This document shows, piece by piece, positions 1 to 35,108 of a stretch of DNA of 64,000 nt. The first letter of the stretch is position 1. Every line of letters begins with the position of its first letter. Position numbers and translations under genes: made by a program. The notes under the pieces were generated by a model. That model did not search any database. It saw only the letters and a program-made list of their open reading frames with translations, and had not been told where the DNA came from. Source of the stretch: Candidatus Amesbacteria bacterium RIFCSPLOWO2_01_FULL_48_25 (GTDB lineage: Bacteria > Patescibacteriota > Microgenomatia > CAZETR01 > Amesbacteraceae); contig MEXN01000003.1 in the NCBI GenBank assembly GCA_001773695.1, forward strand, positions 25,547 to 89,546. Direction: 5' to 3'.

Positions 1-1477
1 TGAGGTATTTTTTACCGGTTGGCAGATTTGCCACCGTGTCTGCCATCTCGCGGTCTACAACAAATTTGATCTTGTCTAAGCCATTTATCCAATACCAATT
101 GGCATGAAAATCCCATGAAGCATGGGCTTGAAAATCGGCCGGGTCCCACGGCCAATAGAAGGCCACGAATTCATGCGGCTCACCATAGCGCTTTGTAAAA
201 ATAATTTGATCATAATCTAGATAATGATTCTTGACATAATTGACGGCTGCTTTGTAACCAAATTGCCAGCTTTGGGAATAATTGACCGGATATTTCATGA
301 GGTAATTTTCCAAATACAAATCGAGGGAAATAAAAAAGGAAATTAGGATTGCAAAAATATAAATTTTGCGGAAACGTGTTTTCAGTCGGCGCCATGACCA
401 CCATACTCCCCAAGCTGATATGAGAACCAACGGGGGAATCATTAAGTTGGACCGAATAACAGCAAACTCGTCCCGAGTAATGGCCGCAGGGAATGGAGCC
501 AGAAACAGCCAAGCCAGTAAAAGTTTGTCCGAGGGAGATGATGATTTTAATTTAAACAAAATTAGGGTTAAACCGAGATAAAAGAACACAGCTTCCGGCC
601 AGAGGAGAACGCCAAACCCCGGCAGACTGTACTGAAATTGCGTGCCACCGGAGAGAGCTAAGAATTGGGGAGAGAAATATCCCAGGAAATGGGAAGCGAA
701 TTGACTGGCTAAATAAGCCGGTCGGTTGTAAATCAGCCGGGGAAATGGAGCCGGGAGAGAAGAGGCGACTCGGGACTGCTCAATCCCGGAAATGACTCCA
801 GGGTCTAAAATCCCCACCCAATTGCCGCGAGCCAGGGATGTGGGAGAAAGAAGAATCAATTCAGAAAGACCAAGAACAGCCAGTATAAAAAATATGTGCC
901 GACGGAAATATACCAAGAGAAAGATAGCAAATAAGGGAATTAAGATACGCGCGTTGTGGTATGAGAATAAACTGAGACCTAGAAACAGAAATGATAGACG
1001 AAAACTAGATCGAAGATAAAGAGCTAAAAAAATACTCATTAAAAATAGGGCCCAGTTGGATTGGAATACGGCGCGGGAAGGAAACAATGCCCAGGGCGTA
1101 ATGGCGAAGAGGAGGGAAGCTAATAATGCAAGTTTGAAGTTTTTGCGCCAGTAATAAGCGGCGGCAAAAATTGGGATAACGCCAACCGTGCCTATCAAAG
1201 CATGAGGAAATCGTGCGGTAAAATCGGTGGGGCCGAATAAAAACACGAAAGGAACAGTAAAGTAGAGATTTATCGGGGCCGGATAGTCACCATAGGCTCG
1301 AAATGAAACTAGCGGAAGAACTTGACCCCACTGGTCCCTGCCGGTTCGTAATAAAGAATAGGCGTTGTAGGCATGGCTCACCTCATCCCAATTGAGACTG
1401 GGTGGAAATTTGTCCAGATAAACCACCCGGAGAAAAATGGCCAATATTAAAATCAGGAAGAGATAAGTTTTTTGCAT
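1..1477 (-). CDS. GT-C membrane glycosyltransferase, ArnT/PMT (GT39-like) family A. Partial: the C-terminus runs off the window start.
   Basis: Not in the ORF track because there is no stop inside the window. I translated the minus strand by hand from the ATG at 1477: MQKTYLFLILILAIFLRVVYLDKFPPSLNWDEVSHAYNAYSLLRTGRDQWGQ...FSYHNARILIPLF...KRYGEPHEFVAFYWPWDP. It stays open to position 1. The NWDE..YNAYSLL.TGRD..G and SYH.ARI motifs match the paralogs at 3021..4613 and 6063..7592. Confidence 0.7.
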   Translation of the reverse strand, partial: MQKTYLFLILILAIFLRVVYLDKFPPSLNWDEVSHAYNAYSLLRTGRDQWGQVLPLVSFRAYGDYPAPINLYFTVPFVFLFGPTDFTARFPHALIGTVGVIPIFAAAYYWRKNFKLALLASLLFAITPWALFPSRAVFQSNWALFLMSIFLALYLRSSFRLSFLFLGLSLFSYHNARILIPLFAIFLLVYFRRHIFFILAVLGLSELILLSPTSLARGNWVGILDPGVISGIEQSRVASSLPAPFPRLIYNRPAYLASQFASHFLGYFSPQFLALSGGTQFQYSLPGFGVLLWPEAVFFYLGLTLILFKLKSSSPSDKLLLAWLFLAPFPAAITRDEFAVIRSNLMIPPLVLISAWGVWWSWRRLKTRFRKIYIFAILISFFISLDLYLENYLMKYPVNYSQSWQFGYKAAVNYVKNHYLDYDQIIFTKRYGEPHEFVAFYWPWDPADFQAHASWDFHANWYWINGLDKIKFVVDREMADTVANLPTGKKYL

Positions 1478-3024
1478 ACTATTCCCAACAGGGCTGTCGC
1501 GCTAATAAGGTTACCCAAAATGCGGGGAAGGGTGTCTTTAAACTGCAGGTTGACCAAATGATCACCCTTGGGAATACGGGCGGTAACTAACCCTAGGTTC
1601 CCACTGGGAAACACAGGAATTTCCCGACCGTCGATTATTGCGGTCCAATTGGGAAAATAAACGACCGGAAAGGATATTTTGGCGTACTCCGGCTCAACTA
1701 AAATCTTATAAACCCCAGTATCCAACAATTTTGAATAACCATTGCCAATGCGAATGGTGGGAGTTGCGGGAGCAAATTTGGTTGGCAGACTGGGGGCAGA
1801 TTGGGGCCAAAAGTCTGGAAGCGCAGATGACCTCTGTTCGTCCCAGAGTGGGCCACTAAATTGTTCTTTGTCGGTAATGCTTCTCCAGATATCCGGGCGG
1901 AAAAAGGAAAAGTTGATTAAAATAACTAAGGAAACCAAGGCGATTGAGGCAATTTTGGAATAATTTTTGGGAATTAAATTTACGATGGCTCCTGAAGACA
2001 GCGATAAAAATAGAGAGGAAATGGATAAGAAGCGCCAGGGAAACTGGATAAATTTCATGGGCTGGAGATAATTCCATATTGGAGAAGACTTACCGTGGGT
2101 TAGAAAGAGGGCGAGCACGCCAAGAGCGAAAAACAAAAGAAAGTTAGTAGAAGCTTCTTTAAATTTTCTAGTGACTATGATACCGATAATAATTAGTGGT
2201 ACTATCCAATGCAGGTGACCGGCAGAAACGCTTAAGAATTTTTGGGCCCACAGAGAAGCGCCATAGCCCCAAAACCGAGAAACGAACAGCTCGCGCAGGG
2301 TAGTGAAATGGATACGATAGTTGTAATAATCTTGAGTTGTATTGGCCAGAGTAATCAGTCGGCTTTCAAAAATAACTGGCAGAAGATAGAAAGCGGACAA
2401 CAAGAGACTAAAAAGCCCGGCTGGTATAAACTTGAGGTCGCGGCTTTTATAAAGCCAGAACGCGGCCAAAAACGGCAGAAACATAAAAACCGAAAGGTTG
2501 TGAGTCAATATGAGTGCGGCTAGAGATAGAGAAAATAACAAGTACTTTTTTCGATCAACTAATAGCAGAACGATGGGAAAGAGAACAAAAGAAAGAGCTT
2601 CCGGAAGAGCACCACGAACCCAAACATCGACTGAGCGATAAGGGGCGTAAATATAAAATATGGCCGATATTATGCCCCCGAAACTACCCCAATAAGTTCT
2701 TGCGAATATAAACATGGTAAATGCGGAAAGAACGAGGGATAAAATGAAGAGTAGCTTTACCGTATCAATAATCTGAAAACCAAGGGAATGGATAATTTCG
2801 CCTATCCAGTAAGGGAGCTGGCCATAATAATTGAAAACCGGTTCACCATAACCCAAACCCGCGTCAGGAGCCCAGCGGCAGGGAAAAGTTTTGGCCCGAA
2901 TGCATTTGTCAAACTCATATTGGCGAAATACATGGAAATCGTGCATGGTGTAAATTCCGGGCCGAAGCATAAGAGAAAATGAGGGGAAAGATAGTAGAAG
3001 TAACAAGAGTAGGGTTTTCCTCAT
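1453..3024 (-). CDS. Polytopic membrane protein of the MHD...GYG(Y/E)P family (putative GT-C-type transferase; possibly PF10131/YfhO-like)
   Basis: 523 aa with many TM helices. N-terminal motif MHDFHVFRQYEFDKC...PCRWAPDAGLGYGEPVFNYYGQLPY is shared with the paralog at 26111..27778. The 4-nt ATGA start overlaps the stop of the upstream gene. Confidence 0.55.
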   Translation of the reverse strand: MRKTLLLLLLLSFPSFSLMLRPGIYTMHDFHVFRQYEFDKCIRAKTFPCRWAPDAGLGYGEPVFNYYGQLPYWIGEIIHSLGFQIIDTVKLLFILSLVLSAFTMFIFARTYWGSFGGIISAIFYIYAPYRSVDVWVRGALPEALSFVLFPIVLLLVDRKKYLLFSLSLAALILTHNLSVFMFLPFLAAFWLYKSRDLKFIPAGLFSLLLSAFYLLPVIFESRLITLANTTQDYYNYRIHFTTLRELFVSRFWGYGASLWAQKFLSVSAGHLHWIVPLIIIGIIVTRKFKEASTNFLLFFALGVLALFLTHGKSSPIWNYLQPMKFIQFPWRFLSISSLFLSLSSGAIVNLIPKNYSKIASIALVSLVILINFSFFRPDIWRSITDKEQFSGPLWDEQRSSALPDFWPQSAPSLPTKFAPATPTIRIGNGYSKLLDTGVYKILVEPEYAKISFPVVYFPNWTAIIDGREIPVFPSGNLGLVTARIPKGDHLVNLQFKDTLPRILGNLISATALLGIVCKKLISS

Positions 3025-4613
3025 GGCGTTTTTTCGGCGATTTTTATAGCCGGTGTTCCGTTGGGGTAGTCCACATGGAAGTATTCGGGGTAATTTTCTG
3101 GAAACTGAGAAGGGGGGCCGATAAATAAAGTAGGGCGAGTAACAGGCTCAGAAAACTTGAGGTCTCCAAATCTAAATTTGCCTAAATAGTAGCCGTCCAA
3201 TTGATCTAGAAAGCGAAGTCCTTTGGCTTCAAAATCCAACCAGGCCGTTGACTCCTTTTGATACTCCTTTGGCGGATAGGCTGAATAAAAAGCGAGAAAA
3301 ATGTGCGACTCGGAGAAAATGCGGCTGACTCTAACGTCTGTAAATCTGTCGGAAATAGGTAAGCCTCGGGAAATGGCTTGGCGCCAACCGTATGACATGG
3401 CTGGTCCGTTAACCGAGGGGGCCAAGTAAATATAACGAAAGCCAAAATATGCTAAAGATACTAAATAAGCACCTGCGATAAAAAAAATGATTTTTTTGCG
3501 AGACCATATTTGCACAAATCCAATGGCTGCAGCCAAGACAAAAAACGGGGTCATGATGGCGGCGCGATTGGCGGCAAAGCCGGAGCTCTTGGATAGGGCT
3601 GCCGGAACGGGGGCTAGACCCAATAAAAGAATTAACAATAGCTGTGACCGAGTGGGCCGGCGGATAAATTGGGTCAGGAATACCCCCAACAACGGCAACT
3701 CGATTAGATAAAGGAGCCCGAGGCCCGGAAGCATGCCGTAAGTAGCCTCGGCTGGACCGGTAGCAAAAAGCGACGAAGGAGAAAAGTAAACCAAGTAGTT
3801 GTGAACGAACTGGGATAGGACGTTGGTCGCTTTGTTGGAAAATGTGCGGGCGACAAAATCCGGAAGCCCAAGGTTTCTGGCCACGAAACGATCCGTGGCC
3901 ACACTATGCCAGTTGTCCGTAGGACTTAGAATACTTACGTCCGCTACCCGCGGACCGAAAAAAGACCACAGGCCCGGGATAAATAACAGAAGCAGGATGG
4001 GGAAAGACTTGTGAGCCGTCAGGCGGACGGGTTTGTACCACCAGAGAAGGGCCAATATAACCGGGGTGAGTATTCGAGCGGAATGGTAGGAATAGAAGGA
4101 TAGTGCGAAGTACAAAGTACTAAGGGCTAAGCGCTGGGACAGAAAGAGATAAATGGCCAGGGGAATAAAAAGGGTGGCCAAATTAGCTTCAAAGGCGCCA
4201 CGGGAGAGCTGGATGTGCCATGGCGAAATCGCAAGGATAAACGAAGCCAGTAGAGGGAATAGCTCTCCCCTCATGAATTTTCGAGCCAGCAAATATATTG
4301 CTGCTATAGCCAAAGATCCAAATATTGCGTTGGGGAGGCGGGTGGCAAATTCGGTTAGGCCGAAGATTTTGACCGTGGGCACGGCCAAATAGGCATAGAG
4401 GGGTAACTTATAGTCACCAAAGGAACGCAAGTTGATAAAAAATAGTTCGTACCAAGGCTGGCCCCATTCGTCCCGGCCGGTAAGAAGTAATGAATAAGCA
4501 TTGTAGCCAAACGCGGCCTCATCCGGGGTAAACCCAGCGGGATAGTTGGATAAGCCAAAGACACGTATAAGTAATCCCAAAACGCAGATACACACCAACA
4601 CTACTTTTCTCAC
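3021..4613 (-). CDS. GT-C membrane glycosyltransferase, ArnT/PMT-like family A
   Basis: 530 aa. N-terminal TM helix then TPDEAAFGYNAYSLLLTGRDEWGQPW (the DE loop motif of ArnT/PMT_2 enzymes), FYSYHSARI, and many TM helices. Confidence 0.75.
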   Translation of the reverse strand: MRKVVLVCICVLGLLIRVFGLSNYPAGFTPDEAAFGYNAYSLLLTGRDEWGQPWYELFFINLRSFGDYKLPLYAYLAVPTVKIFGLTEFATRLPNAIFGSLAIAAIYLLARKFMRGELFPLLASFILAISPWHIQLSRGAFEANLATLFIPLAIYLFLSQRLALSTLYFALSFYSYHSARILTPVILALLWWYKPVRLTAHKSFPILLLLFIPGLWSFFGPRVADVSILSPTDNWHSVATDRFVARNLGLPDFVARTFSNKATNVLSQFVHNYLVYFSPSSLFATGPAEATYGMLPGLGLLYLIELPLLGVFLTQFIRRPTRSQLLLILLLGLAPVPAALSKSSGFAANRAAIMTPFFVLAAAIGFVQIWSRKKIIFFIAGAYLVSLAYFGFRYIYLAPSVNGPAMSYGWRQAISRGLPISDRFTDVRVSRIFSESHIFLAFYSAYPPKEYQKESTAWLDFEAKGLRFLDQLDGYYLGKFRFGDLKFSEPVTRPTLFIGPPSQFPENYPEYFHVDYPNGTPAIKIAEKTP

Positions 4614-4641
4614 GATTCAATTATAATGATATTTACCTGGA

Positions 4642-6078
4642 ATGGCCAAGTTTTTAAAATATATAGTTTGGGGAGGGGTACTAGTCAGGATCGGTTTATC
4701 TCTCTTGGTTCCGTTAGACGTGTCTGTACTCCAGGCTAAACTATTTTATCCCGACCCAAATGACCCATTTGTGGTGAGCCGGGTGTTGGTGAGAGGATGG
4801 GGAAAAATAACGGGGACAGGAACATATCAGACGGCTGGAATGGGTTTAATTATATTTTTGACATTGGTTTACTTAGTTTATAAGTCGATAAGTCACAAAA
4901 TCCCAGAGTCCCCCACTTGGTTGGTGGTGTTGGCTGCCATCTTTAATCCCTGGTTAAATTATTTGGCAGTTTTCCACTGGCAAGAAAGTTTGAGCTTGAT
5001 TTTTGCACTAATGTTTTGGCTGGACAAGGATAATTTTCGGCGGATGGCGTGGGTAATACTTCTGAGTCTGTCCTCTGCCAGTGGATTTGTTTTAGGGTTG
5101 GGTGTTTTGTTACTTTGGATACTTAGACAGCCAAAAATATTAAATCTGGTTCCGGTCCTTATTGTCCTTCTCTGGTTTGGGAGCAGATGGGATTTATTGG
5201 GGCCTTATTTTGAATCCAGCCCGATAAAAGAGCTGACACCGAAATACTTGGGAGGGCAGGTTGACGAGATTCAGAAAAATATATTTTTGGGATCGCAAAA
5301 AAAAATTATATATCCGGCAATTATAAGAAAGATCGTTTTTAATAAAGTAGTTTTGGGTGTTGATAAACTTCTGGGTAACGCTATAGGAGTCGTGGACTTT
5401 ACCCAATGGACGGCACCAGTGTCTGCCATGTCTGTTACCCGATTGTCCGGATTGCCCCCAAAGGGAATATTTACCCAAATGTATTATTGGGAATTGCCGA
5501 TATTAATTTACGGCGCTTGGTCGGCATGGAAAGAGAAGGAGCGGAAAATGTGGTGGGTTGTCTTTTTGGCCATAATACCTGCTTTATTTTGGGAAAAAAG
5601 GTGGTTCTACTTATCCGCATATGGTCTGATCCCTATTTTTGTGTGGTTGACAATGCGAGCAGTAACCCGAATGCCCTGGAAGGTAATATTCGTGGTTGGC
5701 GGGTTATATTGTGTGAGCGGGTTTTATTTTTGGAAACAGTTTTATTTCAACCCGGTTTCATATAGATCCAGTGATGTTTATTTGTATAAACAAATCAACC
5801 TGTGGGTCAGGAAAAATCAAGATAGATATCAAAAAATTATGATTACTAATATGTTTGGGCCGGCGGATTTTATGAACTTGTTTTACGGGGGAATCGACAA
5901 AACCAAAATGGCGTATGGAGAATTTGACCTACGAAAAAATGAGCCCGTTTCCGGTATGGTATATATCGGACTGCCGGGACAGTTTAAACCCGAACATTCA
6001 AACAGAGATATCGAAGTTATTAATTCCGAAGATGAACTTGTTTACAGATACGGGAAAGGATTATGGGTACTAAAGTAA
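4642..6078 (+). CDS. Polytopic membrane protein, function unknown (GT-C-like context)
   Basis: 478 aa, hydrophobic throughout with a soluble C-terminal segment. One of the few plus-strand genes. Its end overlaps the start of 6063..7592 by 16 nt. Confidence 0.45.
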   Translation: MAKFLKYIVWGGVLVRIGLSLLVPLDVSVLQAKLFYPDPNDPFVVSRVLVRGWGKITGTGTYQTAGMGLIIFLTLVYLVYKSISHKIPESPTWLVVLAAIFNPWLNYLAVFHWQESLSLIFALMFWLDKDNFRRMAWVILLSLSSASGFVLGLGVLLLWILRQPKILNLVPVLIVLLWFGSRWDLLGPYFESSPIKELTPKYLGGQVDEIQKNIFLGSQKKIIYPAIIRKIVFNKVVLGVDKLLGNAIGVVDFTQWTAPVSAMSVTRLSGLPPKGIFTQMYYWELPILIYGAWSAWKEKERKMWWVVFLAIIPALFWEKRWFYLSAYGLIPIFVWLTMRAVTRMPWKVIFVVGGLYCVSGFYFWKQFYFNPVSYRSSDVYLYKQINLWVRKNQDRYQKIMITNMFGPADFMNLFYGGIDKTKMAYGEFDLRKNEPVSGMVYIGLPGQFKPEHSNRDIEVINSEDELVYRYGKGLWVLK

Positions 6079-15460: not shown

Positions 15461-15470
15461 GGCATCTATT

Positions 15471-21682: not shown

Positions 21683-21701
21683 GGTGATATCATTATAGCT
21701 G

Positions 21702-27778: not shown

Positions 27779-29277
27779 TTGGGTAACACCTGAAAAAATA
27801 GGGTGTATTCGCGGGTGCCGTCTGGTTTGACAGCTTTGGGGTAGCTAGAAAGAAGCTTTAAACCAATTTTTTCCGGGTCGTCATTATGGAAACGGGATGA
27901 GTTGACGATCAAAAACACTTGATTGTCGGCCAGGGCATTTTGGAGCTTTTCGTGAACCGAGTCTATCCATACTCCCACACCGATGACCCGGACATTGGAA
28001 ACGTTATTCAAATAAAGTTGCAAAGCATCAAATGGAGTGCCGAAAAATCCTTCTGACCCAACTAATACCGGCCCGGACTTTGCAAATTGGGCCAATTGGA
28101 AAGATATATCACGCAAACCTTGGCCGGCGGTCCATTCCTCTAAATATCCGGCCCGTTCTATACGGGGAAGGGGGGTGGACGGGGGGTTGAACAATAGCGA
28201 CCAGTCGACTACCAACGAAGGAATAATGACTAGACCGGCTGCAGCCAGGGTAAGAACGTGCTTTTGGGACTTTTGGCCAAAGTGTTCTATTGCGTGGGCA
28301 ATTAGAATCACGGCAAAAGGGACTGTAAACAATAAATATCTGGCGGTGAAGGCTTTGGCCAGGGATGATTGGACGAATATGGGAACGAGAAACCATAAGG
28401 CTAAGATGAGCCTCTGGCGAAGATGAGAGCGATGGACTTCAAAAGTGCCCCATATAGCAAACAGCAGGCCAATGGGAGTAGCTAAATAGAAATAAAAATT
28501 TAGAGAGTCCTTGAGATGGGGAATTAAGGGATCTAAAGGATGGCGGATAACTTCAAGCACCGGATAAACGTAATCGGCATTTCTGATCGCAATCATGTGG
28601 AACTGGGGACCGAGGCGGAGAATGTTGTACATCCCGATAGCTATCACACAAGCCACAAGCCACAAGCCACAAGCCACAATGAAATTTCTGCGAGTGAGGG
28701 GTTTAATTAAAAGAAAAACCGAAGGAGATAGGAGAAATACGAATACTGCCGGGGATTTGGTCAGCCAAGCAAAACCTAATGAGAAACCGGCGAGCATGGC
28801 CAAATCTAACCGCAGATGGATGAAAGACAGGGCCAGGAGGTTGAAAGTCCAAACATAAAACATGACCAAAAGGCTATCTGCTAAAGCCATACGGCCGAAA
28901 AAGACTGAGTAGGGCAAAACGGAGTAAATTGCGCCTGCTAGTACGGATAAACGTTTGTTTTTGAATAAAATATACGCTGTGAATGCGACACCCATGATTG
29001 TCGCTAAATCGGCAAGGGCTGAAAGAGTTCTACCGGCAAGTAAAGGATCGGAGATGATTTTGAAAAAGGGAATGGTCAACCACATGAAGAACGGTTGTTT
29101 ACCGTCGGACAAGGGCAGGAAACGAAGCGTCGCCTCGGCCCGCATGACCTGGGACCAGCGCACATAAATTGCTTCGTCGGCGAAAATTGGAAGCGAATTT
29201 AGATTTGTAAAACGAAGTAGAATACCGAAAAATAGAATTACAGCGCCAGTTAAAACTATTTTTTTCCAAGAGGTCAT
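27775..29277 (-). CDS. GT-C membrane glycosyltransferase, ArnT/PMT-like
   Basis: 500 aa. NSLPIFADEAIYVRWSQVM is the ArnT-type DE motif. Contains the 7-nt tandem repeat that encodes LWLVACGLWLVAC. Confidence 0.7.
   Translation of the reverse strand: MTSWKKIVLTGAVILFFGILLRFTNLNSLPIFADEAIYVRWSQVMRAEATLRFLPLSDGKQPFFMWLTIPFFKIISDPLLAGRTLSALADLATIMGVAFTAYILFKNKRLSVLAGAIYSVLPYSVFFGRMALADSLLVMFYVWTFNLLALSFIHLRLDLAMLAGFSLGFAWLTKSPAVFVFLLSPSVFLLIKPLTRRNFIVACGLWLVACVIAIGMYNILRLGPQFHMIAIRNADYVYPVLEVIRHPLDPLIPHLKDSLNFYFYLATPIGLLFAIWGTFEVHRSHLRQRLILALWFLVPIFVQSSLAKAFTARYLLFTVPFAVILIAHAIEHFGQKSQKHVLTLAAAGLVIIPSLVVDWSLLFNPPSTPLPRIERAGYLEEWTAGQGLRDISFQLAQFAKSGPVLVGSEGFFGTPFDALQLYLNNVSNVRVIGVGVWIDSVHEKLQNALADNQVFLIVNSSRFHNDDPEKIGLKLLSSYPKAVKPDGTREYTLFFQVLPK
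28648..28675. repeat. Heptanucleotide tandem repeat (acaagcc) x4 perfect plus partial flanks, inside CDS 27775..29277
   Basis: Read directly: cacaagccacaagccacaagccacaagccacaatg. The unit length is not a multiple of 3. Confidence 0.9.
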
Positions 29278-30021
29278 CTATGCAAGTATAACTGGTCGAG
29301 AATGGATCTGGCGAATGCGCCACAAGTCGCGAAGCATGTTGACTACCCCTTCCCAAAATCTAACATGGCTGCCGGGGGAATCAGACCAATCAACTGGAAT
29401 TTCTTTTATGGTTAGCCTCGCCTTTTCGGCTAAATATAATATCTCAGCGTCGAACATGAAGCGGTCGATTTTGGCAAGATTGAATAACTGCCTGGCAATT
29501 GATCCTTTGTAAGCTTTGAAACCGCATTGAGTGTCTTTAAATTTTCGCAATCCGACTAGCATAAATTTGACTTGGTCAAAGACATACGATGCAAGTAATC
29601 TGTAGATTGGAGGGCTTTTCTTTACTTTGGTTCTGTCTTGGCCACGAGACCCGATAACAATATCTGCTGTTTTTAATATGTGCAAAATATGGGGGATTTC
29701 TTCTAGGGGAGTAGAAAGATCTGCGTCCATAAAGAGGACGACGGAACCTCGCGATGCGTGTACTCCTGTTCTAATTGCGTAACCCTTGCCCCGATTGGGA
29801 TGATATGAAACTAACTTTGCTCGCGGTTCTTTGGCAATGGCACGGGATACCGTTTGAGCAGTGTTATCAGTGCTGCCATCGTCCACTATGATCAGTTCAT
29901 AGTTCGGATAATGGGTATCGAGATATTTTAAAACGGGTTTCAGATGTGGTCCCAAGCGATATTGTTCGTTATAAGCGGGGATGATGACTGACAAATGGGG
30001 TTTAATTTTATTTATACGCAT
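29278..30021 (-). CDS. GT2 polyprenol-phosphate sugar synthase (DPM1/GtrB/ArnC-like)
   Basis: 247 aa. LSVIIPAYNEQYRL...ELIIVDDGSTDNT...VLFMDADLSTP...IGSRG. Tandem paralog of 30008..30751. Confidence 0.75.
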   Translation of the reverse strand: MRINKIKPHLSVIIPAYNEQYRLGPHLKPVLKYLDTHYPNYELIIVDDGSTDNTAQTVSRAIAKEPRAKLVSYHPNRGKGYAIRTGVHASRGSVVLFMDADLSTPLEEIPHILHILKTADIVIGSRGQDRTKVKKSPPIYRLLASYVFDQVKFMLVGLRKFKDTQCGFKAYKGSIARQLFNLAKIDRFMFDAEILYLAEKARLTIKEIPVDWSDSPGSHVRFWEGVVNMLRDLWRIRQIHSRPVILA

Positions 30022-30751
30022 GGGTGAGGGAGCGGTAGCGAACCGTAAGAAGGCCGGTCAAGCCGGCTATGGCGTCTTTGATAAAACTGACACGGCGACT
30101 TTCCTGATGTCGCCAAGAAACTCGAACTTCGGAAATTTTGAACCCGAGTTTACGGCCCAAATATAAAAGTTCCACGTCGAAGCCAGGATTGACGGCTGGG
30201 CCAGAAACTACTTTGGGTGGATGAACCTGATTCATGATGGTAAATATTTTTTGGGCAGCATTGCGGTTGAAAGCTTTGAAACCGCACTGAGAGTCTTTGA
30301 CCGGAAGTCGAAGAATAAGGTTGCGAAGGATTATATTTCCGAAAGCCAGGATTTTTCTAAACAGGGGAGCGTTGGGACGACCAGATCTGGAACCAATAAC
30401 AATATCTGATCCGCTTTCTAGAAGAGGCAAGAATTTATCAAATTCGGATATGGGGGTGGCTTGGTCCATGTCCGTAAACAAAATTAATTCTCCTTTGGCT
30501 GCAAGTGCTCCGGAAATAATCCCAGCGGCTTTGCCCATGTGGGGATTATTTATGACTCGGGAATGTGGATGAGATTTGGCGAATTGGTTCAACTGGGCTA
30601 ATGTGGTGTCGGTCGAACCATCATTGACCAGAATTAACTCCCAAGTAAATTTCTGGTGTTTGAGATAATCTGCTACTAATTCCAGTGACCCACGATGTAA
30701 ATTGTCTTCTTCGTTATAAGCTGAGACTATGACAGATAAGTATGGAGTCAC
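30008..30751 (-). CDS. GT2 polyprenol-phosphate sugar synthase (DPM1/GtrB/ArnC-like)
   Basis: 247 aa. LSVIVSAYNEEDNL...ELILVNDGSTDTT...ILFTDMDQATP...IGSRS. GTG start with a GTGA overlap. Confidence 0.75.
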   Translation of the reverse strand: MTPYLSVIVSAYNEEDNLHRGSLELVADYLKHQKFTWELILVNDGSTDTTLAQLNQFAKSHPHSRVINNPHMGKAAGIISGALAAKGELILFTDMDQATPISEFDKFLPLLESGSDIVIGSRSGRPNAPLFRKILAFGNIILRNLILRLPVKDSQCGFKAFNRNAAQKIFTIMNQVHPPKVVSGPAVNPGFDVELLYLGRKLGFKISEVRVSWRHQESRRVSFIKDAIAGLTGLLTVRYRSLTHAYK

Positions 30752-32202
30752 TTTGTAAATCCAAACATGGGGTCAGTAAGATTAGAATCAGCTCCGGAAC
30801 AGCTTTCGACTATTGATTGCGGAGTGTAGCGGGAGTATTCAGGCCAAATCAACCCCAGGGCACCAAATGTCCGATCCAGTCGGCCTACGAGGGAATGGGG
30901 AAAAACGATGGTATATACGGGGGCCAGGCTGGAGGGTGGAGCTAGTTTTTGGCCGGCTAGCCAAAAAAGATAACGGTAGCCAAGATCGTTTCCAGGAGTG
31001 ACGATGTACGAAACAGCCACGCACGGAAAATTGCGGGCTATGGCATCGTTGCGAATGGCCTGGACAATAGTCTGGCGATAAACATAGCCGCTGCGATTGA
31101 CGGGGGATGAGATGAGGCGGTATATATTGTGAATCACAAATATGGCGATAATTGCCCAAGCAATTTTGTGGTTTAGACGAGCGAGGGAGAGGGCAGCAAT
31201 AGCAATCCAGACAATATTCAGCCCGTTGAGATAGTACTCTGAAAGGTTAATTGGGTGAAGTACAAAAAAAACAAACGTTAATCCTAGCCATCCTGAAATA
31301 AAAAATAGCAAGCGGGGAGTGAAAAACCTGCGGGAAAAGTGGATTACAAAACCCAGAAGTAAGATTGTTGGTAGTAAGTGAATGGAAACTCCGCCTGGTT
31401 TGTCCCAAAAAATATTATTGGCGTTTCTGGCGGAGTATAGCCAAACTTGGGCAATTTTCTGGGTATACGACCTGGTTACTTGAGCGCGCGAAGAAAATGA
31501 ATTTATAAATGATCTAACCTGGACAAAGTTGTGGCGGGTTTCAAACACAAAAAGCGGCAGGGAGAGAGTGATAAAAACCAGGATCGGCAAAAGAAAGTCG
31601 CTTGTCGTGAATTTACTTCGTTGTTTCCACCAGATTATAAAAACCAATGGAAAAAGCAGGCCCAGGGCTAGATGAATATTCCAGACAAGTCCCCCGAGGG
31701 TAGCCAGTATTAATAAGGAAGACTTACGTCCCCGCCATAAGCCATGGGCGGCATAGAGAAACCAAACGGTCCATAAAAAAACCGGGGCAGTGGGAACAAT
31801 TTCCCGTTCGGTTTGGCTGATATTAAAAGACGTGGCGTATATTAAAAGTCCTATTATCGAGACCCGATATCCCCATAATTTATTAAAGACCCAGGTTACG
31901 CTGAATAAAGCAGCGATGCTTATAATTAAAGAAAAACCCATTACTCCCGCTGGATCCATCCGGGAGGCGAGATAAAACGGGATGAGGGAGTAATAAAAAT
32001 AGGGGCCGATGAAAATGCCGGGGGAGGAAGTGAGTTGACCAATTAGACGGGGGTGGCCGTCTATTAACATGTCTTTGACAATCCATGAGGACAGATCGGT
32101 GTCGTGGTTGTACTGGAATCGCTCAAGCGGCTGGTAAAGGCGCATGAAAAGACCAAGGGTGATAATTGTTGAAAGCAAAATTAACCTAATTGACTTAAAC
32201 AT
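30748..32202 (-). CDS. GT-C membrane glycosyltransferase, ArnT-like family B
   Basis: Start trimmed to MFKSIRLILLSTIITLGLFMRLY at 32202. NHDTDLSSWIVKDM, GPYFYYSLIPFYL. Paralog of 32204..33670. Confidence 0.55.
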   Translation of the reverse strand: MFKSIRLILLSTIITLGLFMRLYQPLERFQYNHDTDLSSWIVKDMLIDGHPRLIGQLTSSPGIFIGPYFYYSLIPFYLASRMDPAGVMGFSLIISIAALFSVTWVFNKLWGYRVSIIGLLIYATSFNISQTEREIVPTAPVFLWTVWFLYAAHGLWRGRKSSLLILATLGGLVWNIHLALGLLFPLVFIIWWKQRSKFTTSDFLLPILVFITLSLPLFVFETRHNFVQVRSFINSFSSRAQVTRSYTQKIAQVWLYSARNANNIFWDKPGGVSIHLLPTILLLGFVIHFSRRFFTPRLLFFISGWLGLTFVFFVLHPINLSEYYLNGLNIVWIAIAALSLARLNHKIAWAIIAIFVIHNIYRLISSPVNRSGYVYRQTIVQAIRNDAIARNFPCVAVSYIVTPGNDLGYRYLFWLAGQKLAPPSSLAPVYTIVFPHSLVGRLDRTFGALGLIWPEYSRYTPQSIVESCSGADSNLTDPMFGFTK

Positions 32203-32203
32203 G

Positions 32204-33670
32204 TTAATTGAATTTGTGCCTGTAGCGGCGTTGAACAGTGAGCGGCCCAAACGATTTGGTAGTTTCCAGAGAGCTGTAATAAGTCTGACGAATTAGCCAA
32301 TTATTGAGAAGTGTGGGGTGCTCCCAATCCGGTTCCTGGATAGTGTACAGCCGGGTTTGCAAGGGGGTTGATGGCTGGTATCCGTACTTGGTCGAACCTA
32401 GCCACAGAAAAAGATAGTCGTAAGCCAGGGGAATAATTGGGGGAACGTAAACATCGGTATTAAACGCCTGGCCAGCTGCATCCACGTATACCCAATCTAT
32501 GGCAAGGAGCTGGGGAGTGAGTGAGATATATCCGGGGAGAGCCTGGGTATAGAAGAGGTAGTTGTTTTTCAAGTTTTGAAAAAGGAAAAGGGAAACTAAG
32601 AATATGACGACCAACCGACTTTTGGGAAAATGATAGAAAGCGTATGTCCAGATTGAGGCAATCAAAAGTATGAAAACGGGGTACACGCCGGTAAAATAAT
32701 AATCCCAAACATAGCCCTTGTTACCATGATAAAAGAGTAGAATGACCACGGGAGTCAACCACCAAATAAAGGTTGAGACAATTGGTTTGGAAGATATGTG
32801 ATGACGAACTAATAAAAACAAGGCGAGGGATAAAACGACGAATAACAGCATGGCCCAAGGTAAGGTGAAAAGTTTGGAAGTAAAAAATTGATAATATAGG
32901 GCCAGTCTGGTGGTAAAGAAATCAGTGACAGCGGGTTGAAAACTGCGATCCCCTATTAAAAACTTCATAAAAGAGTTTAATAGTATGTTTTGATGCCGGA
33001 AGTTAAATAAGATCTGGGGGACAAGCGTGGATACAAAAGGCAATGATGAGAAGATAAAATTGTTACGATTTAGGATTAATGATTTACGGTTTAGGAAGAG
33101 AATAATAAGAGTCGAGGGAATAAAAAAAATGGCAGAGGCGGCTTCTAGCTGTAAAGTGAGACCGATACCCAAACCCAAGAAAAGCCAGTATCTTTTGCGA
33201 GGGGAAGAGGAAATTATTTTCAGAATACTCCAGAAAGTAATCAAGGCAAAAAGAGGAAGCGGAGTAGGATTAGACAGCCAACGGTGGTAACGGATTAGCT
33301 CTGATGAAAAAGACACTATGGCCGCTGCTAGAAGGCCGGTAGGTTGAGAAAAAAACTCACTGCCAATACGATAAAGGAGATAAATTGCCAGCACGTTGAG
33401 CCCGGCCAAAAAAACGCTTGGAAAAGCAGGATTGCCTTGACCCAGAAGATATGCCGGAGTGATGAGATAGTAATAAAAAGGTCCCAAAAATATACCCTCG
33501 ATTCCAGTGGTCGGTCCAACCAAAAATAACTTTTGTTTATGAATGAGATCCCAAACGACTTTGGCGTCCCGTCCTTGGTCGTACCAAAAGCCCAAAAAAT
33601 CCTGGGTGCGGTAGACCCTAAGGAAAAAAGCTGATACCAAAATCGAAACGAGAATTATTTTATGTTTCAT
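32204..33670 (-). CDS. GT-C membrane glycosyltransferase, ArnT-like family B
   Basis: 488 aa. FWYDQGRDAKVVWDLI, LGPFYYYLITPAYLL. Confidence 0.55.
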   Translation of the reverse strand: MKHKIILVSILVSAFFLRVYRTQDFLGFWYDQGRDAKVVWDLIHKQKLFLVGPTTGIEGIFLGPFYYYLITPAYLLGQGNPAFPSVFLAGLNVLAIYLLYRIGSEFFSQPTGLLAAAIVSFSSELIRYHRWLSNPTPLPLFALITFWSILKIISSSPRKRYWLFLGLGIGLTLQLEAASAIFFIPSTLIILFLNRKSLILNRNNFIFSSLPFVSTLVPQILFNFRHQNILLNSFMKFLIGDRSFQPAVTDFFTTRLALYYQFFTSKLFTLPWAMLLFVVLSLALFLLVRHHISSKPIVSTFIWWLTPVVILLFYHGNKGYVWDYYFTGVYPVFILLIASIWTYAFYHFPKSRLVVIFLVSLFLFQNLKNNYLFYTQALPGYISLTPQLLAIDWVYVDAAGQAFNTDVYVPPIIPLAYDYLFLWLGSTKYGYQPSTPLQTRLYTIQEPDWEHPTLLNNWLIRQTYYSSLETTKSFGPLTVQRRYRHKFN

Positions 33671-35108
33671 TTTTTCCGGAAGGGTTGGGTACTAGTCGAT
33701 AAAGCTTTACTCCCCAGGGAAAATCCCAAACTCCATCTATTTTGGCCCAACCGAAGGAAGCGATTTCCCAAAGGGAGTTACCGATGGGCTGGCAATCTGG
33801 AATTTCACAGATGACAAATAACTGACCAGTTATTTTCTGATGGATAGTAAAGTACGGAGCTTCGTTTAACTGGAGAAAATAACGGTAAGCGGCATCGTAA
33901 TTGGTTTTGGCAAGAAGCGCCAGATTAAAGGGCTGGTCTGCTGATTCAGATTTAATAAATTCGGCGATCTGGCGGGTATGGGCCAGCTGGTTATTGGGAG
34001 GATAGCGAAAAGAATTACTTTGCAAATTAATAAAAATTAGGGGCAAAATTAAAATAAAATTTAGCTTGAAACCTCTTAAGAAGTAGCCGACCAGGAGGAA
34101 TACGGCCGGAAAGAGAAACCCATAGTAATGATCGTAAATGTGTTGTTTATAGAGACCCAGTCCCAAAAGTCCAAAGCCTAACCAGGAGGCAATAAACCAA
34201 AAGTCCCTATTTTTGCTGCGGATTAAATAAAAGACTGTGGATAAAGCGAGAATCACTGCCGTCCACTGGCCAATCAATAAATTCTTGGCTGCCAATAGGC
34301 TAGTGACCATGTCCTGCCAAATTGGCCAGAGATTCGGGATGGCCTTGTAGGCTTTGAAATTTACGGTAGTTTGTCTGTCGGTAAAAAATGTTTTGATGGC
34401 AGCAAAGTTTTGACCATTGTGACGAAGATCGAAAAATAATAATGGAGACATAAGTAATGCCCAAATCACGAATCCCAGAATCAAATATTTTTTATTAGAT
34501 AGTTTGTTTGGACTCAAAAATAGAAATAAACATATCGATGGGGCTAGGAGCAAGCCCAAGTAATGAGAATTGAGAACGAAAGCAAAAGAAACTGCCGAAA
34601 TAAGCAGCCAGTGCCAGTAACCAAAGCGCCAAACTTTCCAAATTCCATACATGGCGGGCAGGGCGAAGAACGGCATAACGTTAGGGTTCCAAGAGGAACG
34701 GGAATAGATAATCACCGTTGGGGAAACAGCGTAAAGAGTAGCTACCGCCAGGGCAGGAAATCTGCCAAACCATTGACGACCTACCCACCAGATCAGGCCA
34801 ACTGTCATTAGTCCAATGACCGAAACGAAAATGGCTGGACCAACTGGGGACAAATTAAAAACTAAAAGAGATGGAGCAACGAGGTAATAATAGAGAGGGC
34901 CGAGATACATGTTGCCTATAGATGTACCTGGGCCGATGGCGGGGAAATGTTTAAGTGTGACCATGTCCTTCATGACGATGGCATCCCGACCTTCATCACC
35001 CAAAAAGGTCATATATTGGTCTATTTTGTAAAGGCGCATGATTGCGCCAAACAAAAGTATAAAAATGATCGCGACTCTTTCTAACTTTGTTATCGAAGTT
35101 TTTTCCAT
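33660..35108 (-). CDS. GT-C membrane glycosyltransferase, ArnT-like family B
   Basis: 482 aa. FLGDEGRDAIVMKDMV, LGPLYYYLVAPSLLV. Confidence 0.55.
   Translation of the reverse strand: MEKTSITKLERVAIIFILLFGAIMRLYKIDQYMTFLGDEGRDAIVMKDMVTLKHFPAIGPGTSIGNMYLGPLYYYLVAPSLLVFNLSPVGPAIFVSVIGLMTVGLIWWVGRQWFGRFPALAVATLYAVSPTVIIYSRSSWNPNVMPFFALPAMYGIWKVWRFGYWHWLLISAVSFAFVLNSHYLGLLLAPSICLFLFLSPNKLSNKKYLILGFVIWALLMSPLLFFDLRHNGQNFAAIKTFFTDRQTTVNFKAYKAIPNLWPIWQDMVTSLLAAKNLLIGQWTAVILALSTVFYLIRSKNRDFWFIASWLGFGLLGLGLYKQHIYDHYYGFLFPAVFLLVGYFLRGFKLNFILILPLIFINLQSNSFRYPPNNQLAHTRQIAEFIKSESADQPFNLALLAKTNYDAAYRYFLQLNEAPYFTIHQKITGQLFVICEIPDCQPIGNSLWEIASFGWAKIDGVWDFPWGVKLYRLVPNPSGKNET

What the first reader, a model, noticed from the sequence alone, without database searches (positions are those of the whole stretch)
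1453..35108. Expansion of membrane transferase families in one locus: two ArnT-like GT-C families, MHD/GYGYP pair, HPDI pair, tandem GT2 duplicates
Family A (NWDE..YNAYSLL.TGRD, SYH.ARI) has six or more members, at 1..1477, 3021, 6063, 10659, 21702 and 27775. Family B (YDQ/GDEGRDA ... YYY) has four members, at 15471, 30748, 32204 and 33660, three of them in tandem. Two MHD...GYGYP proteins lie at 1453 and 26111. Two HPDI proteins lie at 8219 and 16987. Back-to-back DPM1-like GT2 duplicates lie at 29278..30021 and 30008..30751. Such within-locus paralog radiation suggests diversification of acceptor or donor specificity, producing a combinatorial surface glycan code. Recent tandem duplications also provide substrate for recombination-driven variation.
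Basis: seen in the sequence. Interest (0 to 1): 0.5.

Follow-up and report, generated by a model that had tools for sequence, protein, structure and literature searches.

The report
Ancient glycosyltransferase supercluster in Microgenomates bacterium
The repeated membrane-enzyme genes are real. They are very old copies kept in the same order across a whole group of tiny uncultured bacteria, which points to a fixed multi-step sugar-coat assembly line built outside the cell membrane, not a fast-changing surface code.

Summary
All ORFs lie at the stated coordinates and the four membrane families and the GT2 pair are true homologues (BLAST E from 1e-21 to 1e-108; 21702 and 27775 are only loose members of family A).

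The window comes from a Candidatus Amesbacteria genome (CPR/Microgenomates). Profile comparisons link all four families to one superfamily.

Positions 1-38,434 hold 33 genes:
- 17 GT-C genes, plus one protein sharing only the GT-C C-terminal half
- four DPMS/ArnC/GtrB-like polyprenyl-phosphate sugar synthases
- six other GT2 genes, one GT4, a Wzx flippase and a methyltransferase

dTDP-rhamnose genes lie next door, and the locus continues at least 10 kb left of the window.

The "recent duplication / recombination substrate" reading fails. Paralogues are at most 41% identical and share no DNA tracts. Each has a positional orthologue at 35-77% identity in other Amesbacteria, Blackburnbacteria and Woesebacteria, with conserved gene order in 80 species.

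Most likely function: stepwise extracytoplasmic assembly of a conserved envelope glycan from lipid-linked sugars.

Extra finding: the unannotated gene 23126-24715 has a GT-C fold with an oligosaccharyltransferase-like C-terminal domain.

The parts
1..1477 (-). Family A GT-C (PMT_2-like), truncated by the window edge; the full gene encodes 523 aa
   Evidence: BLASTP to 3021 32% identity, E 4e-54. Motifs WDE, YNAYSLLRTGRD and SYHNARI present. Full-length copy seen in L083. Has its own orthologue clade.
1453..3024 (-). MHD family GT-C (PF10131 PTPS_related)
   Evidence: 39% identity, E 7e-108 to 26111. 10 of 13 family members hit PF10131, 2 hit PMT_2 and 1 hits STT3. hhalign to family B gives 96% probability.
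3021..4601 (-). Family A GT-C (PMT/PMT_2)
   Evidence: Pfam PMT_2 30.7 bits and PMT 24.7 bits, both above cut-off. 100% identical to the Amesbacteria protein A2634_04925; orthologues are 44-58% identical. Gene start taken from the gene call in L083.
4642..6078 (+). Membrane protein homologous to the C-terminal half of family A; co-occurs with 6063
   Evidence: hhalign of family A columns 246-508 against the 4642 family: 96.5% probability, E 9e-10. Present together with a 6063 orthologue in L010, L011, L032 and L089. No Pfam hit.
6063..7592 (+). Family A GT-C (accessory lineage)
   Evidence: Pfam PMT_2 36.6 bits. Its clade contains only Amesbacteria L010 and Woesebacteria L032. An orthologue is present in 6 of 47 full-length loci.
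7546..8229 (-). 227-aa protein of unknown function with an N-terminal and a C-terminal hydrophobic segment; travels with 8219
   Evidence: No Pfam hit. Orthologues lie next to 8219 orthologues in L010, L011, L013, L016 and L018.
8219..9415 (-). HPDI family GT-C (GT87 / PimE / PIG-M-like)
   Evidence: Pfam GT87 30.1 bits against a cut-off of 25. The family profile hits PIG-M 23gx at 1e-12, ALG6 6snh at 3e-6 and PimE 9dm5 at 7e-6 (9dm5 is named PimE).
9412..10662 (-). Distant third member of the GT87-like family
   Evidence: BLASTP to 16987 E 2e-6. Aligns in A5 with invariant D, PP and K columns. An orthologue is present in 30 of 47 loci. The 416-aa gene call comes from L083.
10659..12251 (-). 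Family A GT-C (core lineage)
   Evidence: BLASTP E 2e-47 to 3021. An orthologue is present in 47 of 47 loci. Its clade spans Amesbacteria, Blackburnbacteria and Woesebacteria.
12272..15514 (.). Three cytoplasmic GT2 genes (12272+, 13092-, 14591-; rhamnosyltransferase/GlfT1-like) and a SAM methyltransferase (13849-)
   Evidence: Pfam Glycos_transf_2 76-96 bits; Methyltransf_11. Best or near-best NCBIfam family is rhamnosyltransferase TIGR01556, below its cut-off.
15471..17027 (-). Family B GT-C
   Evidence: 28% identity, E 2e-26 to 32204. Motifs YDQARDA and YYY present. Family B against family A by hhalign: 97.5% probability.
16987..18129 (-). HPDI family GT-C (GT87-like)
   Evidence: 30% identity, E 1e-21 to 8219. 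HPDI motif at residue 24. Has its own orthologue clade.
18126..21760 (-). One GT4 (18126) and three GT2 genes (19135, 19884, 20786), all cytoplasmic
   Evidence: Pfam hits. 19135 against 20786: 33% identity, E 1e-33. Positional orthologues are 35-65% identical.
21702..23129 (+). Divergent family A-like GT-C
   Evidence: Pfam PMT_2 43.7 bits. BLASTP E 2e-11 to 3021. TDE and NAALISKTGRD present.
23126..24715 (-). Unannotated GT-C family with an oligosaccharyltransferase-like architecture
24693..26177 (-). Wzx-type lipid-linked oligosaccharide flippase
   Evidence: Pfam Polysacc_synt_3 156 bits. Orthologues are 65-77% identical.
26111..27778 (-). MHD family GT-C (PF10131)
   Evidence: Orthologues are 44-67% identical.
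27775..29277 (-). PMT/PMT_2 GT-C, a separate lineage only loosely related to family A
   Evidence: Pfam PMT_2 45.7 bits and PMT 30.6 bits. BLASTP to family A only 3e-5. Orthologues are 47-65% identical.
29278..30751 (-). Two tandem short GT2 genes: polyprenyl-phosphate sugar synthases (DPMS/ArnC/GtrB-like)
   Evidence: 31% identity, E 7e-35 between them. The family profile hits DPMS 5mlz at 1e-36, ArnC at 5e-36 and GtrB at 1e-34. Each has a 70-71% identical orthologue in L086.
30748..35108 (-). Three tandem family B GT-C genes (30748, 32204, 33660)
   Evidence: Pfam PMT_2 about 41 bits for 32204 and 33660. Orthologues are 45-62% identical, against 23-26% between the paralogues.
35090..35782 (-). 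Third short polyprenyl-phosphate sugar synthase GT2; fused to the 33660-type GT-C in relatives
   Evidence: Pfam 109 bits. Best NCBIfam hit is ArnC. Fused 716-aa and 727-aa proteins occur in L086 and L087.
35816..36859 (+). GT-C related to the Mannosyl_trans2 / PMT type
   Evidence: hhalign to the HPDI family: 96% probability. Its paralogue in L083 hits PF04188 weakly and its orthologue in L088 hits PF02366. Invariant N-x-D-G after TM1.
37319..38434 (-). GT2 fused to a GtrA-type membrane domain: lipid-sugar synthase plus putative flippase
   Evidence: Pfam Glycos_transf_2 98 bits plus GtrA_DPMS_TM 47.6 bits. The 371-aa gene call comes from L001.
39860..42977 (-). RmlD, RmlC, RmlB and RmlA: the dTDP-L-rhamnose pathway
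   Evidence: Pfam RmlD_sub_bind, dTDP_sugar_isom, GDP_Man_Dehyd/Epimerase and NTP_transferase.

Best explanation
The region is the core of a conserved cell-envelope glycan assembly supercluster. It spans the window to about 59.6 kb plus at least 10 kb to the left (about 70 kb in all) and belongs to a Candidatus Amesbacteria genome (CPR / Microgenomates).

Proposed mechanism:
1. Cytoplasmic GT2/GT4 enzymes, fed by the adjacent dTDP-rhamnose pathway, build a lipid-linked oligosaccharide.
2. A Wzx flippase exports it.
3. The neighbouring oligosaccharyltransferase-like GT-C (23126) probably transfers it to its acceptor.
4. In parallel, four DPMS/ArnC/GtrB-like GT2 enzymes load single sugars onto polyprenyl phosphate. 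One of them carries a GtrA flippase domain.
5. About 17 GT-C membrane enzymes of at least six sequence families use these lipid-linked sugars outside the membrane. Each adds a defined residue or linkage to the growing polysaccharide and/or to surface proteins.

The paralogues are ancient, non-redundant steps of one assembly line, not recent copies.

Shown here: homology, family and fold assignments, the age of the duplications, synteny, and the GT2-GT-C gene fusion.
Inferred: donor sugars, acceptor, order of steps, and the role of 23126.
For: Paralogy and motifs.

GT-C identity:
- Pfam PMT_2, PMT and GT87 above cut-off for 8 proteins.
- PF10131 in 10 of 13 MHD family members.
- Profile hits to PIG-M, ALG6, PimE and ArnT.
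- An hhalign network links families A, B, MHD, HPDI and 35816 at 90-97.5% probability.
- An invariant Asp follows TM1 in every family.

Lipid-sugar synthases: full-length profile matches to DPMS, ArnC and GtrB at E about 1e-35. The top NCBIfam hits (ArnC, PgfS) and several further hits (Dol-P-hexose transferase, PpgS) are polyprenyl-phosphate transferases. A GtrA domain sits on 37319.

Functional coupling: the 35090-type GT2 and the 33660-type GT-C form one polypeptide in L086 and L087.

Wzx and Rml genes.

23126 fold.

Age and conservation:
- Orthologues are 35-77% identical, against at most 41% for paralogues.
- Trees.
- 80 syntenic loci from Amesbacteria, Blackburnbacteria, Woesebacteria and Shapirobacteria, including three complete genomes of 0.81-0.90 Mb.
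- Median of 8 GT-C genes within 10 kb either side of the 3021 orthologue.
- Five genes are present in 42-47 of 47 loci.
- Same gene order in a relative whose 3021 orthologue is 82% identical.
Against: - No initiating phosphoglycosyltransferase, Wzy polymerase or LCP ligase was found in the window or in the left extension. The pathway is therefore incomplete as seen here.
- No biochemical data exist for any member.
- Donor and acceptor identities cannot be read from sequence.
- 23126 has no WWDYG motif in the sequence read, so a true oligosaccharyltransferase role is uncertain.
- Some modules are patchy across relatives, so not every step is universally required.
- Orthology counts are limited to 10 kb either side of one anchor gene.
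Confidence: 0.72

Rival explanations
1. One reading: a recent within-locus radiation of transferase paralogues, with tandem duplicates acting as substrate for recombination or gene conversion, generates a variable combinatorial surface-glycan code.
For: Several families do sit in tandem (30748/32204/33660; 29278/30008). Some modules differ between distant relatives. L088 carries three tandem MHD genes.
Against: - Paralogues are 22-41% identical.
- There are no shared DNA tracts.
- Every paralogue has closer orthologues in other candidate phyla.
- Both tandem GT2 genes are already separate in Amesbacteria GW2011_GWA2_47_11b, each 70-71% identical to its own orthologue.
- Gene order is unchanged in a relative whose 3021 orthologue is 82% identical.
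Confidence: 0.05
2. The locus is mainly a protein glycosylation machine. PMT-like GT-Cs O-glycosylate, and the OST-like 23126 glycosylates en bloc, surface proteins such as sortase-anchored or Pro/Thr-rich proteins. It would not build a wall polysaccharide.
For: - PMT and PMT_2 hits.
- 23126 is closest to STT3, AglB, PglB, DPY19 and Pmt4.
- The short GT2 enzymes resemble PgfS, part of the streptococcal Pgf protein O-glycosylation pathway (PMC12041528).
- A sortase lies nearby, as does an fn3 protein ending in LASTG plus a hydrophobic tail, and a protein with a long PT-rich linker at 59747-60511.
Against: - Rml genes, rhamnosyltransferase-like GT2 genes and a Wzx flippase are typical of polysaccharide loci.
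- GT87/PimE-, AftA- and ArnT-like enzymes act on lipids and polysaccharides.
- About 17 GT-Cs is far more than known bacterial protein O-glycosylation systems use.
- The two readings are not mutually exclusive.
Confidence: 0.25
3. The 'families' are an artefact of shared transmembrane-helix composition and not true homology.
For: All the proteins are polytopic and hydrophobic. 27775 and 21702 match family A only weakly.
Against: - E-values reach 1e-108 with compositional adjustment.
- Invariant loop motifs lie outside the TM helices.
- Curated Pfam thresholds are passed.
- Profile-profile probabilities are 90-97.5%.
Confidence: 0.01

Closest known systems
Three-component (GtrA/GtrB/GtrC-type) extracytoplasmic glycosylation systems, for example Shigella/Salmonella O-antigen glucosylation, Citrobacter Rib-f addition (PMC11127046) and streptococcal GacI/J/K/L
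   Same: A GT2 polyprenyl-phosphate sugar synthase, a flippase (a GtrA domain on 37319) and a GT-C transferase are encoded together. A GT2-GT-C fusion in relatives ties a synthase to its transferase.
   Different: Known systems add one side-chain sugar with a single GT-C. Here four synthases serve about 17 GT-Cs of at least six families in one locus, and the set is conserved across a whole class-level clade instead of being serotype-specific.
Mycobacterial arabinogalactan / lipoarabinomannan assembly (WbbL, GlfT1/2, then AftA-D, EmbA-C, PimE, MptA-type GT-Cs using decaprenyl-phosphate sugars)
   Same: Cytoplasmic rhamnosyl/GT2 priming is followed by multi-step extracytoplasmic elongation by many GT-C enzymes. 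GT87/PimE-like and AftA-like folds are present. PpgS-like and Ppm1-like short synthases are present.
   Different: There is no close sequence orthology, only family- or fold-level matches. No DPA pathway genes were seen. The genes are gathered in a single locus in a genome under about 1 Mb. The organism is a CPR bacterium with an uncharacterised envelope.
Rhamnose-rich cell-wall polysaccharide loci of streptococci, lactococci and enterococci (PMC9574508, PMC10821137)
   Same: RmlABCD, rhamnosyltransferase-like GT2 genes and a Wzx-type flippase are combined with GT-C/GtrB-type side-chain modules in a monoderm organism.
   Different: The number and diversity of GT-C enzymes is far larger. No ABC transporter or LCP ligase was seen in the window. 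The GT-C families involved (PMT_2, GT87-like, PF10131, the new 23126 family) differ from those in these loci.
Protein O-mannosyltransferases (GT39: PMT/Pmt with Ppm1) and streptococcal GtrB/PgtC2 and PgfS/PgfM1 systems (PMC12041528)
   Same: PMT and PMT_2 domains are present, with a DE motif in loop 1. The donor synthase is DPM1/PgfS-like.
   Different: No MIR domain was detected. Pfam scores are only just above threshold. The acceptor is unknown. The gene multiplicity is unprecedented for protein O-glycosylation.
Oligosaccharyltransferases STT3 / AglB / PglB (GT66)
   Different: About 10-12% identity. No Pfam STT3 hit. No WWDYG motif was seen in the sequence. Membership of GT66 is not established.

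Membership tests
GT-C glycosyltransferase superfamily | Polytopic membrane protein with 7-13 TM helices | tested here: met
   A crude hydropathy scan gives 5-11 segments for all candidates. The AF2 model of 23126 is a multi-helix bundle.
GT-C glycosyltransferase superfamily | Conserved acidic residue in the first extracytoplasmic loop, directly after TM1 | tested here: met
   Invariant residues: D31-E32 in family A, D47 in family B, D29 in MHD, D25 in HPDI, D36 in the 35816 family and H43-D44 in the 23126 family. Loop topology is inferred, not measured.
GT-C glycosyltransferase superfamily | Sequence or fold homology to established GT-C families | tested here: met
GT-C glycosyltransferase superfamily | Uses a polyprenyl-phosphate-linked sugar donor outside the membrane | not testable with these tools
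   Supported only by the co-encoded DPMS/GtrB-like synthases and the GT2-GT-C fusion.
GT39 protein O-mannosyltransferase (PMT) | PF02366 PMT domain with a DE motif in loop 1 | tested here: met
   3021 scores 24.7 bits and 27775 scores 30.6 bits against a cut-off of 22.7. The DE motif is present. Other family A and B members hit only PMT_2.
GT39 protein O-mannosyltransferase (PMT) | Mannosylates Ser/Thr of secreted proteins | not testable with these tools
   Only circumstantial evidence: candidate PT-rich and sortase-type proteins lie nearby.
ArnT (GT83) lipid A aminoarabinose transferase | Specific homology to ArnT, with lipid A as acceptor | tested here: inconclusive
   The family A profile hits ArnT 5ezm only at E 0.004 over about 125 residues. 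CPR bacteria are thought not to have a Gram-negative envelope (PMC6744442). The label 'ArnT-like' should therefore be read as 'PMT_2 fold' only.
GT87 (PimE-type polyprenyl-phosphate-mannose mannosyltransferase) | PF09594 above the gathering score | tested here: met
   8219 scores 30.1 bits against 25 (met). 16987 scores 18.4 bits, below the cut-off. 9412 has no hit. The family profile hits PimE 9dm5 at 7e-6.
Polyprenyl-phosphate glycosyltransferase subgroup of GT2 (DPMS/GtrB/ArnC) | Full-length catalytic-domain homology to DPMS, GtrB and ArnC | tested here: met
   Profile A9 hits 5mlz at 1e-36, 9bhc at 5e-36 and 5ekp at 1.5e-34, covering positions 4-231 of 244.
Polyprenyl-phosphate glycosyltransferase subgroup of GT2 (DPMS/GtrB/ArnC) | C-terminal transmembrane helices anchoring the enzyme | tested here: not met
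   29278, 30008 and 35090 are 230-247 aa with no predicted TM segment. In this they resemble TM-less enzymes such as PpgS (a 226-position model). 37319 does carry a GtrA TM domain, and the 35090 orthologues are fused to a GT-C in relatives.
Wzx/Wzy-dependent polysaccharide pathway | Wzx flippase present | tested here: met
   PF13440 at 156 bits.
Wzx/Wzy-dependent polysaccharide pathway | Wzy polymerase and an initiating phosphoglycosyltransferase present | tested here: not met
   No Wzy_C, Bac_transf or Glycos_transf_4 hit on any ORF listed at the length cut-offs used (150 aa up to 37 kb, 100 aa beyond) or in the left extension. They could lie elsewhere in the genome.
Recently duplicated / recombining contingency locus | High nucleotide identity or conversion tracts between copies; copy number varies among close relatives | tested here: not met
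   (nothing above 84 nt at 73%). (same order in a relative whose 3021 orthologue is 82% identical). (the splits predate the divergence of these candidate phyla).
GT66 oligosaccharyltransferase (for 23126) | GT-C TM domain plus an AglB/PglB-type C-terminal globular domain | tested here: met
GT66 oligosaccharyltransferase (for 23126) | WWDYG and DK/MI motifs; Pfam STT3 | tested here: not met
   No Pfam hit in 6 members. No WWDxG motif in the sequence printed.

The most novel reading that the evidence does not exclude
Microgenomates (and perhaps many Patescibacteria) devote an estimated 7-9% of a genome under about 1 Mb to a conserved supercluster. This cluster builds a complex envelope glycoconjugate almost entirely outside the membrane, using about 20 GT-C enzymes. 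The logic resembles mycobacterial arabinogalactan/LAM assembly or the eukaryotic ER-lumen toolkit (PMT-, PIG-M/ALG-, PIG-V- and STT3/DPY19-like enzymes). The cluster includes a previously unrecognised, Patescibacteria-wide OST-like GT-C family (23126). It would be the genetic basis of the still-unknown CPR cell surface that mediates host attachment.
Probability: 0.35. Interest if true: 0.7.

Novelty: new variant of a known kind. Interest (0 to 1): 0.5.

Why it matters
The composition of the CPR/Patescibacteria cell envelope is essentially unknown, yet it is the interface through which these ultrasmall episymbionts attach to their hosts.

A syntenic locus conserved across the clade, with 17 GT-C enzymes in the window (about 21 counting the left extension) and four lipid-sugar synthases, indicates that Microgenomates invest heavily in a structurally complex, extracytoplasmically assembled glycan.

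It provides a defined gene set for several approaches:
- metaproteomics
- heterologous expression
- glycan chemistry
- cryo-ET correlation

It also corrects an attractive but wrong reading, that of recent paralogue radiation. In addition, it assigns a fold to a widespread family of 'hypothetical' proteins (23126) that may be a divergent oligosaccharyltransferase.

No paper in the searched library describes this cluster.

Tried and rejected
- **AF2 of the MHD protein.** Only the two window paralogues could be used as the alignment. The model was unusable (pLDDT 35), so the MHD fold rests on Pfam and hhalign.
- **PDB profile searches.** Nothing was found for the MHD, 23126 and 35816 families.
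- **Lax Pfam scan.** No credible hit at E up to 1 for 47361, 48919, 4642, 7546, 9412, 35816, 15471 and 30748. 47361 and 48919 remain unassigned.
- **Fold search against afdb50.** The library was not available.
- **Gene-conversion search.** The repeat finder with seed 12 and blastn with word size 7 were both negative. The only 100% hit (47 nt) is the physical overlap of the adjacent ORF calls 30748 and 32204.
- **tRNA and Rfam scans.** Both were empty.
- **Literature.** Searches for GT-C or GT39 expansion in Microgenomates/Patescibacteria returned nothing specific. Méheust 2019 notes only that Microgenomates-enriched families are mostly hypothetical, with many in the membrane.
- **'ArnT-like' as a functional label.** Considered and rejected: the match is weak and the organism presumably lacks lipid A.
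- **Compositional-similarity artefact.** Considered and rejected.

Full report
**Source and setting**

The window is part of NCBI assembly GCA_035258405.1, contig DATEVR010000271.1 (207.5 kb). Its proteins are 100% identical to "hypothetical proteins" of Candidatus Amesbacteria bacterium RIFCSPHIGHO2_01_FULL_48_32. The organism is therefore a member of the CPR / Microgenomates. The same sequence recurs in several JGI and ENA groundwater metagenome assemblies. GC content is 41-52% and GC skew is persistently positive. No tRNA or Rfam element is present.

**Checking the observation**

All-vs-all BLASTP gives the following.

| Group | Members | Identity | E-value |
|---|---|---|---|
| Family A core | 1..1477, 3021, 6063, 10659 | 25-32% over about 450-510 aa | 2e-28 to 4e-54 |
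| Family A, divergent | 21702 | N-terminal region mainly | 1e-8 to 2e-11 |
| Family A, marginal | 27775 | 22% over 86 aa (best hit) | 3e-5 and 4e-4 |
| Family B | 15471, 30748, 32204, 33660 | 23-29% | 7e-5 to 2e-26 |
| MHD pair | 1453, 26111 | 39% | 7e-108 |
| HPDI pair | 8219, 16987 | 30% | 1e-21 |
| GT2 pair | 29278, 30008 | 31% | 7e-35 |

- 27775 shares only the ADE motif with family A.

**What the families are**

- Pfam places 3021, 6063, 21702, 27775, 32204 and 33660 in PMT_2 (3021 and 27775 also in PMT), and 8219 in GT87, all above the curated cut-offs.
- The MHD family is PF10131: 10 of 13 members hit it, best E 1.7e-9, and occasional members hit PMT_2 or STT3.
- A profile of the HPDI family plus 9412 hits solved structures of PIG-M (1e-12), ALG6 (3e-6) and mycobacterial PimE (7e-6) (9dm5 is named PimE).
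- The family A profile weakly hits ArnT.
- Profile-profile comparison links the families: A-B 97.5%, B-MHD 96%, A-HPDI 95%, MHD-HPDI 90.5%, HPDI-35816 family 96%.
- The same comparison shows that 4642 shares the C-terminal half of family A (96.5%).
- The four "different" motifs are one feature: an invariant Asp immediately after TM1. It is D31-E32 in A, D47 in B, D29 in MHD and D25 in HPDI. This is the hallmark catalytic loop of GT-C enzymes (definition in PMC11127046).
- The short GT2 genes 29278, 30008 and 35090 match Pyrococcus DPMS, ArnC and GtrB over the whole catalytic domain (E about 1e-35). Their top NCBIfam hits (ArnC, PgfS) and several others are polyprenyl-phosphate transferases, all below the equivalog cut-offs.
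- 37319 is a fourth such enzyme, fused to a GtrA membrane domain.
- The other GT2 genes (12272, 13092, 14591, 19884) look like rhamnosyl/galactofuranosyl-type chain builders.

**Anatomy**

Positions 1-38,434 hold 33 genes:
- 17 GT-C genes plus the GT-C-like 4642; together these cover 67% of the bases
- 6 ordinary GT2 genes
- 4 lipid-sugar synthase GT2 genes
- 1 GT4, 1 Wzx flippase and 1 methyltransferase

The glycan theme continues to the right:
- RmlDCBA
- two unassigned polytopic proteins (47361, 48919)
- a GT4, a methyltransferase and a PIG-L-GT2 fusion
- a 1,569-aa GT2-GT2-Wzx-GT4 fusion

It also continues at least 10 kb to the left of the window:
- two more family A genes
- a GT2, a GT4 and a further GT2
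- a Mannosyl_trans2-like paralogue of 35816
- a paralogue of 23126

**Age of the duplications**

- Orthologues of 3021 in other Amesbacteria are 47-58% identical, and those in Blackburnbacteria about 44%. The best in-window paralogue is 32% identical.
- Orthologues of 32204 are 45-60% identical, against 24-28% for its paralogues.
- A scan of one genome per GTDB species returned 80 loci, all apparently Microgenomates. Named records are Amesbacteria, Blackburnbacteria, Woesebacteria and Shapirobacteria; many carry uninformative or wrong titles. Three are complete genomes of 0.81-0.90 Mb.
- ORF-by-ORF comparison shows conserved gene order on both sides of the anchor gene.
- Three further loci show the same for the right half, from TrmD through the three family B genes to Wzx and 23126. 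Positional orthologues there are 38-77% identical.
- Neighbour-joining trees for family A, family B, MHD, HPDI and the short GT2 genes put every window paralogue in its own clade with orthologues from other candidate phyla.
- Both tandem GT2 genes already exist separately in Amesbacteria GW2011_GWA2_47_11b. Each is 70-71% identical to its own orthologue, against 31% to the paralogue.
- No nucleotide repeat links any pair of paralogues.
- A relative whose 3021 orthologue is 82% identical has the same order.
- Among 47 loci with full flanks, 3021, 10659 and one left-extension family A gene are present in all 47. The 1..1477 gene is in 42.
- 1453, 15471, 8219, 6063, 4642 and 21702 are accessory, found in 2-17 loci.
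- The median number of GT-C genes within 10 kb either side of the anchor is 8, with a range of 4-13.

**Mechanism (inferred)**

- The gene set fits a two-tier pathway. In the cytoplasmic tier, GT2/GT4 enzymes using dTDP-rhamnose and other nucleotide sugars build a lipid-linked oligosaccharide that Wzx exports.
- In the extracytoplasmic tier, four synthases make polyprenyl-phosphate monosaccharides, which a battery of GT-C enzymes add one by one. This is the logic of three-component glycosylation systems (PMC11127046), multiplied many-fold as in mycobacterial arabinan/mannan assembly.
- A Rosetta-stone fusion supports direct synthase-transferase coupling. The 35090-type GT2 and the 33660-type GT-C form a single 716-727-aa protein in two relatives. 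In the window the two genes overlap by 19 nt.
- The acceptor is unknown. A polysaccharide is favoured by the Rml genes, rhamnosyltransferase-like GT2 genes and Wzx.
- Protein glycosylation is also possible, perhaps in addition. Supporting hints are the PMT-type domains, the PgfS-like synthases (PMC12041528), the nearby sortase, an LASTG-type protein and a PT-rich protein.
- No initiating phosphoglycosyltransferase, Wzy polymerase or LCP ligase was found in the sequence available.

**An extra finding**

- 23126-24715 lies next to Wzx. It has no Pfam domain and only "hypothetical" homologues. There are more than 1,300 of these; the few that carry a name are all Patescibacteria, and the best 120 are at least 48% identical.
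- With a 45-sequence alignment, AF2 gives a confident model (pLDDT 88.9, pTM 0.91).
- It has no WWDYG motif in the sequence read, so it is OST-like in architecture but is not shown to be a GT66 member.

**Novelty and verdict**

- The enzyme classes and the three-component logic are known.
- What appears undescribed in the searched literature is a syntenic supercluster, conserved across Microgenomates, with about 20 GT-C genes in genomes of roughly 0.8-1 Mb, together with the new OST-like family.
- I rate it a new variant of a known kind, of moderate interest.
Its evolutionary interpretation (recent, recombination-prone radiation) is not supported. Its functional intuition (diversified specificities building a complex surface glycan) is reasonable but unproven.

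Noticed in passing
window 23126-24715 (-): A conserved Patescibacteria 'hypothetical' membrane protein with no Pfam domain. A confident AF2 model has a GT-C fold closest to STT3, AglB, Pmt4 and AftA, and an AglB-like C-terminal domain. The gene lies next to the Wzx flippase. A 28%-identical paralogue lies left of the window (L083:20133-21572).
   Followed up: yes
window 37068-37233 (ORF 36863-37306, - strand): A perfect 24-nt tandem repeat with 6.9 copies (100% matches). It encodes the octapeptide SVPAIINQ seven times in a 147-aa ORF between the 35816 GT-C and the GT2-GtrA gene. The relatives L086-L088 have no gene at this position. It may be a recently expanded or variable repeat protein.
   Followed up: partly
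window 33660-35782 (-); L086:7854-10004; L087:7821-10004: The 35090-type GT2 (lipid-sugar synthase) and the 33660-type GT-C are separate genes overlapping by 19 nt in the window. In two relatives they are fused into one 716-727-aa protein. This is a Rosetta-stone link between a donor synthase and its transferase.
   Followed up: yes
window 54862-59571 (-): A 1,569-aa single ORF combining GT2, GT2, a Wzx-like (Polysacc_synt) multi-TM segment and GT4 domains.
   Followed up: no
window 47361-48947 (-) and 48919-50679 (-): Two polytopic membrane proteins (7-8 TM segments) with no Pfam hit and no detectable similarity to the GT-C families of the locus. They lie between the surface-protein genes and further GT genes and could be additional unrecognised transferases.
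   Followed up: partly
window 44740-46114 (-) and 59747-60511 (-): A sortase lies next to an fn3 protein that ends in LASTG, then a hydrophobic stretch, then a basic tail (a sortase-substrate-like sorting signal). Separately, a 254-aa protein has a long Pro/Thr/Ser-rich linker and a C-terminal TM segment. Both proteins are candidate glycoprotein acceptors.
   Followed up: partly
window 1-64000: GC skew is positive in every 2-kb bin (+0.05 to +0.23), with most genes on the minus strand. A published Microgenomates genome paper (PMC7143001) highlights an unusual strand composition disparity in its title.
   Followed up: no
L004, L005, L010, L013 and many other loci: Many genome records that clearly carry the Microgenomates cluster are titled 'uncultured Gammaproteobacteria bacterium' (TPA MAGs), and one is titled 'Clostridia bacterium'. 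These appear to be taxonomic mislabels in the public records.
   Followed up: no
L088:15047-20107: A Microgenomates relative carries three tandem MHD/PF10131 paralogues that are 29-44% identical to the window copies. Copy number of this family therefore varies between lineages.
   Followed up: partly
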